DNA from: the human T2T-CHM13v2.0 reference genome, Homo sapiens
Reading direction: 5' to 3' (one strand)
Assembly (NCBI RefSeq): GCF_009914755.1
Contig: NC_060943.1
DNA length: 64,000 bases
This document shows, piece by piece, positions 40,201 through 61,200 of the stretch. The notes beneath the pieces are model-generated. The model worked only from the letters and a program-made list of their open reading frames with translations. It was not told where the DNA came from and made no database searches. Position 1 is the stretch's first letter, and each line of letters begins with the position of its first letter. The position numbers were made by a program, and so were the translations under genes.

Positions 40201-43200
40201 TTGGATGGATGATGAACGAATGGACTTATCGATGGATGGATGGGCTGATAGATGGGCCCGAGTAGCTTTATTGATAGCAGTGAGTGGGTCAGCTGATCTC
40301 CAGGGACACTTCTATCTCTGGTCTTCTTGGTTATTGCACTGATCTGAGTCTAATGCTAATTTCTCTCTCTGCTCCCTGCTCCCGTTGTGAACTGGCTGGC
40401 TGATGCTTTTGTCTCCAGTTGCAACTAAAGAAAAAAGTAAGAACCGTGGAACCCCCAAGTCTGTATTTTCATAGCTACCTCTCCTAAAATTCTTTTCGAT
40501 CTTGCAACCTCTCTGGCAATTCTGGGGAAGGGTGGCACTTGGATCTGGTGCACAGACCTGCCATGGGGTCTGGACATGACTCAGAAAAGCAAACCTATTG
40601 TTTGCTTACAGTGATGCTCACAACTAAAAGAGCAGCCCTCCTTCACTCCTTTGTCTGGGGAAGAGAGGCCTATTCGGAAAATGAAGAGCATTTATCAGGG
40701 AAGAGAGACTTCGGGCAGATCTCCATTAGAATAACACCTTGGCTTATGTTTAACACCAGCTGGTGGTTTGCAAACTTCATGGTCTTAGGGCCACTGAACA
40801 CGCGAAAAAAATTATTAAGGATCTAAAGAGCTCTTTTTTTTTTTTTCCAGTGAGGGTTATTTTTATTTATTTATTTATTTTTGAGACGAGCCTCGCTCTG
40901 TCGCCCAGGCTGGAGTGTAGTGGTGCGATCTGGGTTCACTGCAACCTCTGCCTCCTGGGTTCAAGCGATTCTCCTGCCTCAGCCTCCCGAGTAGCTGGGA
41001 CTACAGGCTGCGCGCCACCATGCCCGGCTAATTTTGTATTTTCAGTATAGACGGGGTTTCACCATGTTGGTCAGGCTGGTCTCGAACTCCTGACCTCAGG
41101 TGATCCGCCCACCTCGGCCTCCCAAAGTGCTGGGATTACAGGTGTGAGCCACTGTGCCCGGCCAAAGGTTATCTTTATTGATATTTACCTTATTGTAAAT
41201 TCAAGGATTTTTAACTTAAAAATATTTATATTTACAAATATTATAAATATTTACAAATACAAATACTTATATTTACAAAAACTATTTCTATTTACAAATA
41301 AGCACATAAAAAGATGCTCAACCTCATTAGCCATCAGAAAAATGGAAGCCAAAGCCACAGTGAGGTATCACTTCACACTAACTAACGTGGAGAAATCAGA
41401 ACCCTCATATGCTGCTGGTGGGAATGTGAAATGATACAGCTGCTTTGGAAAACAGTCTGGCTGTTCCTCAAAATGTTAAACACTGAGTTACTCAGCAATT
41501 CCGCTCTAGGTATGTGCCCAAGATAAATGAAACGTAAGTCCACACAAAAACCCATGCACAAATGTTCACAGCAGCACTATTCCTAAGAGCTAGCAAGTGA
41601 AGGTAATCCTAGCATGCATCCATTAATGAATGGAGAAACAGAGTGTGGTCTATGCATACAATGGAATATTATTCACCCATAAAAAGAAACAAAGTTCTGA
41701 TGCATTCAACATCGTGTGTGAGCCTTGAAAACATTATTCTCAGTGAAAGATGCCAGTGATAAAAGATCACATATTACCTGATTCCGTTTACCGTATATGA
41801 AATATTCAGGATAGGCAAATCCATAGAGACACAATGGACATTAGTGATTTCCAGGGGGTGAGGGGTGGGGGAATTTAGAGACAATGACTAAGGGGTTCAG
41901 GGTTTATTTTGGGGTGATTAAAGCCTCTAAAACTGGTGTAGTGATGGTCGTACAAGTCTGAGTATCCTACAAACCACTGAAATGGGTGAATTGCATGGTA
42001 TGTGAATTATATCTCAGTAAAGCTATTATTCAAATATCTATTACTGCATTAAAAAAATAAGGATAATAGAGACTCAGAAGGAAGGAGGGTGGCAGGGAGG
42101 TGAGGGATGAAAACTACCTTTTGGGTACAATGTACATTACAAAGATGCTGGTGCACTAAAATCCTAGACTTCACCACTGCACAATTCATCCATGTCACCA
42201 AAAACCACTTGTACCCCTAAAGCTACTGAAATTAAAAATATTTGAAAAATAAGGATAATAAATATACATACTGACATAAATAAAATGTTTTAGTGAAATG
42301 GCTGTTTCCAAACCAAAAAAGTTTAGTAAGAAAGGTATTATTTTACATTTTTGCAAATCTCTTTGATGTCTAGTTTAATAGAAAACAGCTGAATTCTCAT
42401 TTCTGCTTCAGTCTGTCACAATGTGCTATTTTTTTTTTTTTAGCTTTATGTGTTTGTTTATTTTGGAGACGTAGTCTTGCTCTGTCGCCCAGGCTGGAAT
42501 ACAGTGGCACGGTCTCGGCTCGCCATGACATCTGCCTCCTGGGTTCAAGCAATTATCTTGCCTCAGCATCCGAAGTAGCCTCCCAAGTAGCTGGGATTAT
42601 AGGTGCATGCCACCATGCCTGGCTAATTTTTGTATATTTAGGAGAGACAAGGTTTCACCATGTTGGCCAGGCTGGTTTTGAACTCCTGACCTCAAGTGAT
42701 CTGCCCACCTCGGTCTCCCAAAGTGCTGGGATTACAGGCGTGAGCCGCCCCGCCCAGCCACAATGTGCTATTTTGGTTGAAGCAAATGAAAATCTAATCT
42801 CACACAGATAAGGAGTTGGAAAAGGGAAGATCATGCAGACCCGTTTTAGGCAGAGTTCTCCAGAGAGACAGAACCATGAAGATATACATATAGATACATA
42901 TATAGATAAAGATATTGATAGAGATATTTGAGAACAAATTTCTTAGGGGAATTAGCTCACTCAGTTGTGGGGTCTGCAAGCTGCAGAACCAGGAGGGCCA
43001 GTAGTGTGGCTCAGTCCAAGTCTGAAGGCCTCAGAACCAAGGAAGCTGATGGATGGTCTAACTAACTCTCAGTCTGAGGCCAATGGCCTGGGAGCTCAGG
43101 GAGCTGTTGGTTCAAGTCCTAGAATCCCAAAAGCTGGAGTACCTGGAGTTCTGACATCCAAAGCCAGGAGAAGGGCATCCCAGCTGCAGAAGGGAGAGCA

Positions 43201-58200: not shown

Positions 58201-61200
58201 TGTCACTCGTCTGGAGGTTGAGAAACCCCCCGCTGAATAAAATGTCTGGCACGGGATAAGAGCTCAGCAAGGGTCTGTGAGGACCACCTCATTTACCTTT
58301 GTTCTGAACACTCCCATGTCTGCAGGAGGCCCCTCTGCCTTGCTCCTTTCGCTCCTTTTCCCAGGCCCTTCTCCAGCCTCCGTCCTCATGCTGCACTGAC
58401 AGCACTTTGCAAACTGAAAGCAGACCCAGCAGGAAAATCCCAAACACCTGCCTAAGGGCCCACCAGGTGCCAAGCAGACCCAGCCCTGCTCCAGTAACGA
58501 GCAAAAGCCAAACCCAGCAGGAAAATCCCAAACACCTGCCTAAGGGCCCACCAGGTGCCAAGCTCTGTACTGGGCGATTCACGTGGGCTCTTTCTCCCGG
58601 ACCCTCACATTAACCCAGGATGCAAGTGGTTCGGTGGAGACAGCCTGAGTTTTAAGGCAAAGAGGCCTGGGTGGGAACTCTACTCCCATCATCTATAATG
58701 TGGGCGTAACTTACCCAAACTCCCTTAGATTCTATTTTCCTACCTGATTAATGGAGATAATATTTTTTGCTTGTTTGAGAATTCAGTGACATAAGGCAGG
58801 GATCAATCAGCATTTTTTTTTCTGTTTTCTGTAAAGCGCTAAATAGTAAACATCTTAGGCTTTCAGGGCCAGGTGGTCTCTGCTGCCACTCACTACTCAA
58901 TGCTGCCTTTGTGGCCTGAAAGCAGCCACAGACAACACACAGTGAATGGGCATGGCTGTGTGCCAATAAAACTTTATTTACAAAAGCAGTAGACAACACA
59001 TTGTGAATGGGCATGGCTCTGTTCCAATAAAACTTCATCTACAAAAGCAAGTGTCAGGATGTCCACCCACCGATGAATGGGTAAATAAAATGTGTCTATT
59101 CATACAATGGAATGTTATTCAGCCACAAAGAAAGTGCTGACACAGGACACAACATAAACGCGCCTTGAAAACACAGTGCTCAGTCAAAGAAGCCAGACAC
59201 AAAAGCACATAGGGTATGACTCTGTCTCTACGACATGTCCACAGCAGGCAAGTCCACAGATAGGGAAAGCAGCTTAGTGGTTGCCTAGGACCGCGGGAGA
59301 GGGGGGTGAGCCCAGAGAGATGGGGAGTGACTGCTCAGGGGCACCAGGTTTGGAGGCAATGGCCAACGGGTACACGGTTTCTTTTTCAGGTGATGAAAAC
59401 GTTCTAAAATTGTTTGTGGTGATGGATGCACAGCTTTGTGAATGTCCTAAAAACTACTGTCTTGTACACTTGATGGGTGAGTCATAAGTTATGTGAATTA
59501 TATTAATATACCAGTCAAGTTGTTATTAAAAAACAAAGTTCAGAAAACAACAACGGGTGGTGGGATGGAATGTGCCACCCCTGGATGAGTATGTAGGTGC
59601 CTACATTAGAGTGACACAAAATACATGGAAAAAAGGCCTGGCATGGTAGCTCACACCTGTAATCCCAGCACTTTGGGAGGCTGATGCGGGCGGATCACCT
59701 CAGGTCAGGAGTTCTAGACCAGCCTGGCCAACGTGGTGAAACCTCCGTTTCTACTAAAAATACAAAAATTAGCCGGGTGTGGTTGCGGGTGCCTGTGCTC
59801 CCAGCTACTCAGGAGGCTGAGGCAGGAGAATCGCTTGAACCCGGGAGGCAGAAGTTGCAGTGAGCCGAGATCGTCCCACTGCACCCCAGTCTGGGCAACA
59901 GAGCAAGACTCCGTCTAAAAAACAAAAAACAAAACAAAACAAAAACAAACAGAAGAGATGGGAATGGCGTGGCGGCTTCCTTCCCAGCCTAACCTTGCTG
60001 CGGTGCAAATCCTGCAAGTCACTGCACGTCCCTCCAACCCACACGAAGCAGCCTCTGACTGTTCTGCGCTGTTCACTGTGGCATGTCCTGACTACTCAGC
60101 ACGACCCACCCAGGGCTCCGCTCTCCTGTGCTCCCATCGCTCTGTCTTCTGATGTTGTGATTTTTCCCTACATGTGGCCTCCTCTTCCACGGCTCCTGGG
60201 AACTCCATACTCTGGGCCTGTCTGCTCCCCTGACCTGTCTTGCTTCCTGGACCCCATCTCCTTCTGGATGGACATCATCAGAGATCCTAGGTGACACCTC
60301 ACTCCATGCCTGCCCCGGGACTCTGTAGGAAGCTGGTTTGGGAGGAATGCTTTTTAGGGCTGGGCAGGGTGGTGGAAAGCTGAAAGATGGATCTGACAAG
60401 CTCACACCCTCACGTCAACTCACAGTCTAGTGGAGGTGGGGAGATGGAAAAGTAACAGGCAGTTAAACTACAACAGGAATCTGTGTGGCACAGGGGGGAG
60501 GTGGCAGTGGGGACAGTGTGCAAGAGGACGATGCGGGCAATCCAGCAGGGCTTCTCGGAGGAGGAGTGGCTTGGGGCGAGCCTGCTGGACCTGCTGGTCT
60601 GGAAGTGTTTATCATGCTGTCCCTTCTGACTCGCGTTGTATGCCCCTGTCCTCCTTAGGCTTGCTGAGCCTCCAAGTACTGCATGGTAAGTCTGGTGACT
60701 GCTATTTCGTGTTCACTCCTGTGCACAGAAATATACAGGTACTGGTTTTTTCTATGGTGGGGGGTCCCTTAAATATCATCAGACCCTACACTCTTTATCC
60801 GTATCATCATCTGCATCATAAATGTTTAACATGTTTTTATTTGTCCAACAGATATTAACTGATGTTAGCTCTCCTGTACCAAATGTTATTCTAGGTGTTA
60901 GAGATGCAGCAGAGGATAAAACAGACAGAAGTCTGTGACCAAGTGAAACTTGTATTCCAATCAGAGGAGAAAAAACAAAGAGCAGTAGTTATAGGTCTGC
61001 TGAAGGCTATTATGTCCTATGGAGACAATAGAGTAATGGGGATGGAAACGCAGTGCGGGAAACTTAAGTTTTTTGGCTGGGCATGGTGGCTCATGCCTGT
61101 AATCCCAGCACTTTGGGAGGCCGACGTGGGTGGATCACCTGAGGTCAGAAGTTCGAGACCAGCCTGGCCAACATGGTGAAACTCCGTCTCTACTAAAATA

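What the first reader, a model, noticed from the sequence alone, without database searches (positions are those of the whole stretch)
40350..60690. The microexon array is an ancient internal duplication of an 18/6/9/9/27-nt module
Seen: exons 2-6 (18, 6, 9, 9, 27) and exons 8-11 (18, 6, -, 9, 27) pair up in size and in acceptor-flank sequence. Examples: taatgctaatttctctctctgctcc...ccgttg...ctccag (ex2) vs taatgttgatttctctctctactct...ccgttg...ctccag (ex8); ctggctctgctgccccttccag (ex3) vs ctggttctgctacttcctccag (ex9); ctggatgg..catcag GGATCATAG (ex5) vs ctggatgg..catcag AGATCCTAG (ex10). The protein repeat is [23 protein letters not shown] vs [20 protein letters not shown]. Similarity is visible only near the exons, which suggests selection on the splicing flanks.
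Basis: seen in the sequence. Interest (0 to 1): 0.8.

Follow-up and report, generated by a model that had tools for sequence, protein, structure and literature searches.

The report
Duplicated microexon cassette in EDDM13
The human epididymis gene EDDM13 holds two ancient copies of a cassette of five tiny exons, and humans have lost one 9-base exon from the second copy through a broken splice site.

Summary

**DNA evidence.** Exon pairs 2/8, 3/9 and 5/10 are reciprocal best non-self matches over the whole 64-kb window on both strands. They beat all 51 non-partner exon pairs and 1000 of 1000 shuffles. The 6/11 flanks are at background, but those exons match 14/27 in register.

**Orthologue evidence.** Many placental mammals carry two complete 18/6/9/9/27 cassettes. 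Their consensus is [23 protein letters not shown] and [23 protein letters not shown]. An afrotherian has both cassettes, so the duplication predates crown placentals.

**The gap in the human second copy.** It is a dead exon at 55948-55956. The acceptor caacag is intact and the donor reads CT instead of GT. Read in frame it gives TLKQ, where macaque has ILKQ.

**Flanks.** Paralogous similarity covers only the exon, about 65-190 nt upstream and at most 40 nt downstream. This coincides with unusually long AG-free zones: 53-207 nt upstream of 9 of 10 microexons. Selection on these flanks is plausible but not shown here.

**Status.** The microexons were already noted by GENCODE annotators. I found no paper describing the duplication. 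This is a new, tidy example of a known kind of event.

The parts
40419..40436 (+). Exon 2 (18 nt), first exon of cassette A. The paralogous block with exon 8 is 40341-40448.
   Evidence: SW score 36 against exon 8, with 0/1000 shuffles reaching it. It is the reciprocal best hit in the window. Upstream AG-free zone 70 nt.
46023..46028 (+). Exon 3 (6 nt), cassette A. The paralogous block with exon 9 is 45957-46045.
   Evidence: SW score 30, with 0/1000 shuffles reaching it. Reciprocal best hit. AG-free zone 85 nt.
46821..46829 (+). Exon 4 (9 nt, LLK), cassette A. Its partner in cassette B is the dead exon at 55948-55956.
   Evidence: AG-free zone 102 nt with TTAAT at -96. Its best non-self match in the window is exon 5.
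48528..48536 (+). Exon 5 (9 nt), cassette A. The paralogous block with exon 10 is 48340-48574.
   Evidence: SW score 20, with 0/1000 shuffles reaching it. Reciprocal best hit. Exon identity 7/9.
49324..49350 (+). Exon 6 (27 nt), last exon of cassette A.
   Evidence: Its flanks are not similar to those of exon 11. Exon identity is 14/27 in register, against 8/27 with exon 12. The protein part scores +6.4.
52708..52761 (+). Exon 7 (54 nt), the linker between the cassettes. It has no paralogue and is absent from some orthologue models, for example macaque P0008.
   Evidence: (background scores only). AG-free zone only 22 nt.
53197..53214 (+). Exon 8 (18 nt), first exon of cassette B. The paralogous block is 53118-53226.
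55164..55169 (+). Exon 9 (6 nt), cassette B. The paralogous block is 55097-55186.
   Evidence: AG-free zone 93 nt.
55948..55956 (+). Dead 9-nt exon ('4psi') of cassette B: caacag|CACTGAAAC|ctaaga. The acceptor is intact and the donor reads CT instead of GT.
   Evidence: - It is the best match of the exon-4 window within intron 9 (SW score 16), and 11/300 shuffled introns reach that score.
- AG-free zone 105 nt with TTAAT at -99, against 102 nt and -96 for exon 4.
- Phase-1 reading gives DRTEEEIKTLKQIL..., where macaque P0008 has DRTEEEMKILKQIL....
60282..60290 (+). Exon 10 (9 nt), cassette B. The paralogous block is 60087-60325.
   Evidence: AG-free zone 168 nt.
60659..60685 (+). Exon 11 (27 nt), last exon of cassette B.
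52058..52084 (+). Candidate relic of a sixth cassette exon in copy A. It resembles exon 12 (61828-61854). This part is tentative.
   Evidence: - It matches exon 12 at 19/27 ungapped, the unique maximum among 3331 positions of intron 6. Of 1000 shuffled introns, 4 reach 19.
- Real sequence elsewhere in the 78 kb examined also gives one 19/27 hit and eight 18/27 hits.
- A CT-rich block at 51677-51755 lies upstream of it, as one does upstream of exon 12.
- No orthologue shows such an exon after module 1: 0 of 89.

Best explanation
**What it is.** The middle of EDDM13 consists of two paralogous copies of a five-microexon cassette. The exons are 18, 6, 9, 9 and 27 nt, and every exon is flanked by phase-1 introns. 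The copies arose by one tandem duplication inside the gene, before crown placental mammals diverged. Because every exon is symmetric, the duplicate stayed in frame. It added a second 23-residue segment behind the signal-peptide exon.

**What changed in humans.** Many mammals still splice all ten exons. In the human sequence, and judging from protein models in other apes too, the third exon of the second cassette is dead. Its acceptor is intact but its donor reads CT instead of GT.

**The flanks.** What remains alignable between the copies is the exon plus about 65-190 nt upstream and at most 40 nt downstream. The upstream stretch lies within long AG-free zones. These most likely hold a distant branch point and an extended polypyrimidine tract, which such tiny exons need for recognition.

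**Shown versus inferred.**
- Shown: the paralogy, its age, and the dead exon.
- Inferred: branch-point positions and selection on the flanks.
For: **DNA paralogy**
- 2/8, 3/9 and 5/10 score 36, 30 and 20, against 8-17 for the 51 non-partner exon pairs.
- 0/1000 shuffles reach these scores.
- The three pairs are reciprocal best hits over 64 kb on both strands.
- The blastn hits are collinear.
- Exons 6 and 11 match 14/27 in register.

**Orthologues**
- 19 of 55 species or genus entries in six orders have a full second cassette.
- The module consensuses share 9/23 residues, and 1 of 100000 column permutations reaches their in-register score. All five exon parts score positive.
- Both modules are present in Echinops, an afrotherian.

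**Dead exon**
- 0 of 4 ape entries have the exon in their protein models.

**AG-free zones**
- 9 of 10 microexons have an AG-free zone of at least 53 nt. Among 166 acceptor-like control AGs in the same introns, 15% reach 50 nt. The ordinary exon 7 has 22 nt.
- Extended branch-point-to-3'-splice-site distance is reported for neural microexons (PMC12871342: abstract and section 20 read).
- Long AG-free zones mark distant branch points (PMC1431707: abstract read).
Against: - The 6/11 intron flanks are at background.
- The dead exon is only modestly significant on DNA alone: 11/300 shuffled introns reach its score, and seven other places in the window match its 27-nt core equally well at 17/27.
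- Many orthologue proteins are computed models. About ten 'SKY/CKY' forms look like read-through of the intron after the 18-nt exon, and I set them aside.
- Absence of the ILK exon from a model may reflect skipping or annotation rather than loss. Zalophus and Mus have models both with and without it.
- Exon 8 has an AG at -9 (the next upstream is at -80), so its AG-free zone is interrupted.
- No branch point was mapped, and no orthologous genomic DNA was compared.
Confidence: 0.9

Rival explanations
1. The flank resemblance is convergence or chance. All microexon acceptors need strong pyrimidine tracts and consensus donors, so they look alike without sharing ancestry.
For: Non-partner exon windows do share low-level similarity, scoring up to 17. 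Exon 12's CT-rich flank gives spurious high scores elsewhere.
Against: - The similarity is partner-specific and collinear. The three pairs exceed all 51 non-partner pairs and all shuffles, and they are reciprocal best hits in 128 kb of search space.
- The encoded peptides align in register.
Confidence: 0.02
2. The ancestral module was 18/6/9/27. Exon 4 is a later gain in copy A by tandem duplication of exon 5, and copy B never lost anything.
For: Exon 4's best non-self match in the whole window is exon 5: SW score 17, reached by 2/1000 shuffles, and a 20/27 core match that is unique among all positions on both strands.
Against: - A 9-nt 'ILK/VLK' exon sits at the matching place of cassette B in 19 species or genus entries of six orders.
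- The human relic reads TLKQ in frame.
- 5/10 (score 20) is closer than 4/5 (score 17).
Confidence: 0.03
3. The duplication is real, but the restriction of similarity to exon flanks reflects neutral decay plus intron turnover (insertions, deletions, Alu and other repeats, or originally short introns). It does not reflect selection on splicing signals.
For: - The 6/11 flanks retain nothing.
- Identity inside the local alignments (303/450 upstream) is no higher than old neutral DNA can retain.
- A collinear block lies away from any splice signal: 48726-48788 vs 60367-60433, 69% over 67 columns, E=0.027.
- 28% of the window is multi-copy repeat by my self-comparison.
- Intron lengths differ strongly between the copies.
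Against: - The alignable upstream stretches match the AG-free zones in extent.
- 9 of 10 microexons have AG-free zones of at least 53 nt, against 15% of controls.
- Flank identity (67%) is at least that of the coding microexons (59%).
- Published work reports extended, conserved 3' splice-site regions at microexons (PMC12871342).
Confidence: 0.35
4. Gene conversion between the two cassettes keeps short tracts near the exons similar.
For: The copies lie in the same orientation, 12.8 kb apart.
Against: Identity is only 60-70%, with no long near-identical tract. From general knowledge, conversion needs and produces far higher identity. The cassette peptides are distinct and each is conserved across orders.
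Confidence: 0.02

Closest known systems
Tandem duplication of exons or exon cassettes inside a gene. This is the classic route to internal protein repeats; examples such as collagen and nebulin are recalled, not fetched here.
   Same: The exons are collinear paralogues of equal size and phase. The reading frame is preserved by symmetric exons. The protein repeat is conserved in orthologues.
   Different: The unit is a run of five microexons of 6-27 nt separated by kilobase introns. One member has since died in the human lineage.
Schistosome micro-exon genes (MEGs). Source: PMC10526429 and bioRxiv 10.1101/2023.06.21.545858, abstracts in the search listings.
   Same: Both are genes for a secreted protein whose middle is built from very short symmetric exons separated by long introns. 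In-frame skipping can vary the product.
   Different: No sequence relation was sought or is expected. EDDM13 is a single-copy placental gene, not a family. The isoform variety here is known only from computed models.
Neural microexons with an extended branch-point-to-3'-splice-site region and UGC motifs (PMC12871342: abstract and section 20 read).
   Same: Upstream functional regions are long: AG-free zones of 53-207 nt. TGC occurs within -35..-4 at 9 of 10 microexons, against 46% of 230 control sites. Donors are strong: 9 of 11 read GTAAG.
   Different: Expression is in the epididymis (PMC6886504 supplement; PMC6688925), not in neurons. Dependence on SRRM3/4 is unknown. The exons are arrayed in one gene rather than scattered.
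Human exons with distant branch points, defined by AG dinucleotide exclusion zones (PMC1431707: abstract read).
   Same: The AG-free zones upstream of the acceptor are unusually long.
   Different: Branch points are not mapped here. In this gene the property holds for nearly every microexon and is shared by the paralogues.

Membership tests
Intragenic tandem duplication of an exon cassette | Collinear exons of the same sizes and phases in both copies | tested here: met
   Copy A is 18/6/9/9/27 and copy B is 18/6/(dead 9)/9/27. All introns are phase 1.
Intragenic tandem duplication of an exon cassette | DNA similarity between partner exons and flanks above chance and above non-partner exons | tested here: met
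   Met for 2/8, 3/9 and 5/10. Suggestive for 4/4psi, where 11/300 shuffled introns reach the score. Not met for the 6/11 flanks, although those exons match 14/27.
Intragenic tandem duplication of an exon cassette | The encoded peptide repeats align in register | tested here: met
   9/23 consensus identities. 1 of 100000 column permutations reaches the observed score.
Intragenic tandem duplication of an exon cassette | Both copies present in distant orthologues, which sets the age | tested here: met
   Both copies occur in Boreoeutheria of six orders and in the afrotherian Echinops. No marsupial appeared among the proteins listed: 120 of 183 and 106. These are word-based searches.
Exons with distant branch points (AG exclusion zone class) | A long AG-free zone upstream of the acceptor | tested here: met
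   9 of 10 microexons have at least 53 nt, against 15% of 166 control AGs reaching 50 nt.
Exons with distant branch points (AG exclusion zone class) | A branch point mapped at the far end of the zone | not testable with these tools
   Only yTnAy motifs were listed. No lariat data are available.
SRRM3/4-dependent microexon programme | UGC motif close to the 3' splice site | tested here: inconclusive
   9 of 10 microexons against 46% of controls. The paralogues are not independent observations.
SRRM3/4-dependent microexon programme | Inclusion depends on SRRM3/4, with neural or endocrine expression | not testable with these tools
   Expression is reported in the epididymis (PMC6886504 supplement; PMC6688925).
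Schistosome MEG family | Sequence homology to MEG proteins | not tested
   This is an analogy of gene architecture only. EDDM13 orthologues match no Pfam family.

The most novel reading that the evidence does not exclude
EDDM13 may be a mammalian counterpart of the schistosome micro-exon genes. On this reading, the phase-1 microexon cassettes were doubled by duplication and let the epididymis produce many in-frame variants of a secreted protein by combinatorial skipping. Their shared long AG-free upstream regions would be the conserved code that makes 6- and 9-nt exons spliceable outside the nervous system.
Probability: 0.2. Interest if true: 0.65.

Novelty: new member of a known kind. Interest (0 to 1): 0.45.

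Why it matters
**Splicing.** The gene offers a natural paired experiment in microexon recognition. Five pairs of 6-27-nt exons have been copied once and kept for roughly the whole history of placental mammals. The DNA that both copies retain points at what such exons need in order to be spliced.

**Annotation.** The result explains why gene models of this locus disagree so much between species. It identifies a human-lineage exon loss caused by a single splice-site base. It also flags likely annotation errors, where intron read-through is translated as 'SKYCD'-type residues.

**Limits.** It does not change what is known about the protein's function. Mouse knockouts are fertile (PMC6688925).

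Tried and rejected
- **Collinear-chain score of all weak blastn hits after repeat masking.** It does not discriminate: 282.6 for the real pair against 241.5 for a reverse-complement control. Dropped in favour of exon-anchored tests.
- **Identity in 25-nt bins from anchored global alignments.** Too noisy, with null means of 0.45-0.62.
- **A third cassette downstream.** I fetched window 64001-78000. No exon window scored above background, except exon 12's CT-rich flank.
- **A partner for exon 7.** None found.
- **Paralogues elsewhere in the human genome.** The exon 13 peptide finds only itself below E=1.
- **Amphipathic-helix test by hydrophobic moment.** Not significant: 507/5000 and 1493/5000 shuffles reach the observed values.
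- **Known families.** No Pfam family. The only solved-structure hits are two designed helical repeat proteins at E about 1e-4. No usable Atlas hit.
- **Structure prediction.** The tool accepted no jobs, so no fold is reported.
- **Literature.** Searches for 'EDDM13' (11 papers), 'Epp13' (9) and 'microexon'+'epididymis' (5) found no account of the duplication. I read passages of four of these papers and saw only titles or abstract starts of the rest. Supplemental Fig. S3A of PMC6886504 shows this gene, but I could not see it.

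
Full report
**What is there**

The window is human chr19 and the finding lies in EDDM13 (plus strand). The first coding part is 85 nt and exons 2-12 are all multiples of three, so introns 1-12 are all phase 1 and every one of these exons is symmetric.

**Is the pairing more than chance?**

I compared windows of -100..+40 around every exon from 2 to 12 by local alignment.
- Partner pairs score 36 (2/8), 30 (3/9), 20 (5/10) and 13 (6/11).
- The 51 non-partner pairs carry the same kind of pyrimidine tract and donor, and they score 8-17.
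- Dinucleotide shuffles reach the observed score in 0/1000 cases for each of the first three pairs and in 13/1000 for 6/11.

I then scanned each exon window against the whole 64-kb window on both strands. Exons 2 and 8, 3 and 9, and 5 and 10 are each other's best non-self hit. Exons 6 and 11 are not.

A blastn comparison of 37247-52707 with 52762-64000 is dominated by Alu-type repeats. It also gives, in order and on the plus strand, hits at 2/8 (E=1e-8), 3/9 (E=1.4), 5/10 (E=1e-3) and 6/11 (E=75).

In register, the exons match 11/18, 3/6, 7/9 and 14/27. The third 27-nt exon, exon 12, matches exons 6 and 11 at only 8/27 and 6/27.

MAFFT alignments show the same blocks.

**The missing exon**

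The exon-4 window finds its best match within intron 9 at 55849-55986. There the sequence reads caacag|CACTGAAAC|ctaaga, against caacag|TGCTGAAAG|gtaagc at exon 4.
- On DNA alone this is only suggestive. 11 of 300 shuffled introns do as well, and seven other places in the window match the 27-nt core equally well.
- Both sites have an AG-free zone of about 100 nt, with TTAAT at its far end.

The decisive evidence came from orthologues. I translated the contiguous exon 13, fetched from the same genome, and used it to find EDDM13 proteins. An alignment of those proteins found more, and a last search started from a divergent rodent form.
- Macaca mulatta 'epididymal protein 13 precursor' reads [23 protein letters not shown], which is a complete 18/6/9/9/27 second cassette.
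- Module 2 can be bracketed in 55 species or genus entries. Of these, 19 have the full middle of the form xK-xLK-xIL. They span Old World monkey, loris, rodents, tree shrew, artiodactyls, carnivores and bats.
- None of the 4 ape entries has it.
- Reading the human relic in phase 1 between exons 9 and 10 gives [23 protein letters not shown]. This includes the K-to-Q change expected from a relic that ends in C where exon 9 ends in A.

So the gap is a loss, and in the human sequence the exon is disabled at its donor (CT for GT).

Caveats:
- Most of these proteins are computed models.
- About ten 'SKY/CKY...' middles are what one gets by translating the intron just after the 18-nt exon. I set them aside as probable annotation artefacts.
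- Some species have models both with and without the exon.

**Age and extent**

Across clean orthologues the consensus cassettes are [23 protein letters not shown] and [23 protein letters not shown].
- They share 9/23 residues.
- All five exon parts score positive.
- Only 1 of 100000 column permutations reaches the in-register score.

Echinops telfairi, an afrotherian, has the 18-nt and 27-nt parts of both cassettes. The duplication therefore predates crown placentals. No marsupial or monotreme protein appeared in the lists, but these searches rely on shared words and cannot show absence.

There is no third cassette further down the gene. Exon 7 has no partner. The gene is single-copy in the human genome as judged by exon 13.

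**The flanks**

Local alignments span these ranges relative to the exon:

| Pair | Upstream limit | Downstream limit |
|---|---|---|
| 2/8 | -78 | +12 |
| 3/9 | -66 | +17 |
| 5/10 | -188 | +38 |
| 6/11 | -10 | +6 |

Identity inside the alignments is 303/450 upstream, 41/69 in exons and 73/99 downstream. Local alignment biases these figures upward.

The upstream stretches lie within unusually long AG-free zones:

| Exon | AG-free zone (nt) |
|---|---|
| 2 | 70 |
| 3 | 85 |
| 4 | 102 |
| 5 | 69 |
| 6 | 53 |
| 9 | 93 |
| 10 | 168 |
| 11 | 53 |
| 12 | 207 |
| dead exon 4psi | 105 |
| 7 (ordinary exon) | 22 |

- Among 166 acceptor-like AGs in the same introns, 15% reach 50 nt.
- Exon 8 has one AG at -9 and the next at -80.
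- Long AG-free zones mark distant branch points (PMC1431707, abstract read).

My reading is that the conserved paralogous DNA is the 3' splice-site unit of each microexon. This step is an inference. I could not map branch points or measure cross-species constraint. A rival remains open at roughly one in three: neutral decay plus intron turnover, consistent with the bare 6/11 flanks and with one collinear block away from splice signals.

**What is known**

GENCODE annotators recorded that eleven coding exons of this 161-residue, 15-exon gene are microexons, and that the gene is conserved in mammals and expressed in the epididymis (PMC6886504: main-text passages and supplement files 4 and 7). 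Mouse Epp13 knockouts are fertile (PMC6688925, passages).

I found no paper describing the internal duplication or the dead exon. One figure of PMC6886504 that shows the gene could not be seen.

The event is an ordinary kind of event, a tandem cassette duplication kept in frame by symmetric exons. It occurs in an unusual setting, a run of 6-27-nt exons in a non-neural gene.

**Verdict**

- Observation: confirmed.
- Duplication and its age: supported.
- Missing exon: explained as a lineage-specific loss.
- Selection on the flanks: plausible but unproven.
- Interest: moderate.

Noticed in passing
window 42579-42602: The 24-nt exon of the other annotated transcript lies inside an Alu and has the familiar antisense-Alu exon form. 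It is exactly as long as exons 3+4+5 together (6+9+9 nt). It encodes TSQVAGII, which explains the '[15 protein letters not shown]' form of the Pan/Homo X1 protein P0002.
   Followed up: partly
window 52058-52084 and 51677-51755: This is a possible dead copy of exon 12 between exons 6 and 7. It matches 19/27 in register, and its phase-1 reading is GETEGWKEA against [12 protein letters not shown]-rich block lies upstream, as at exon 12. If real, the ancestral cassette had six exons. Significance is marginal, and no orthologue shows such an exon.
   Followed up: partly
window 40391-40397, 45993-45999, 46774-46780: ACTGGCT occurs five times on the plus strand of the window. Three of these lie 28, 30 and 47 nt upstream of exons 2, 3 and 4. 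The total count is not above shuffles. This may be a shared splicing element or a trace of common origin of all the microexons. It is unexplained.
   Followed up: partly
window 46809-46835 vs 48516-48542: The acceptor cores of the two 9-nt exons 4 and 5 match 20/27. This is the single best non-self match of the exon-4 core on either strand of the window. However, 4/10, 4psi/5 and 4psi/10 are at background. It may be an older tandem duplication within the cassette or convergence. Not resolved.
   Followed up: partly
orthologue proteins P0083, P0087, P0089-P0091, P0102, P0106, P0107, P0109, P0121 (dog): Ten predicted dog isoforms differ by in-frame omission of single microexons or whole cassette parts. 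Similar sets exist for Lemur catta, Zalophus and Perognathus. They are computed models. If real, the symmetric microexons give combinatorial protein variety.
   Followed up: no
orthologue proteins, e.g. P0071, P0072, P0093, P0028: The 'SKYCD', 'SKYCE', 'CKYFE' and 'SKN..' residues after the 18-nt exons equal the translation of the intron that follows (the human intron begins gtaagtactgtgac). They fill the five residues of the unfound 6-nt and 9-nt exons. They are likely gene-model errors in public records.
   Followed up: partly
window 66291-66418 (L002) and beyond: Exon 13 starts in phase 1 but ends in phase 0, so the run of symmetric phase-1 exons stops at exon 12. The C-terminal part (exons 13-15) is the most conserved part of the protein. 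It has invariant Cys, Trp and Tyr positions and matches no Pfam family.
   Followed up: partly
-35..-4 of the microexon acceptors: TGC is present within -35..-4 of the acceptor at 9 of 10 microexons, against 46% of 230 acceptor-like control sites. This recalls the UGC elements described for SRRM4-dependent microexons (PMC12871342, section 20). The paralogues are not independent observations.
   Followed up: no
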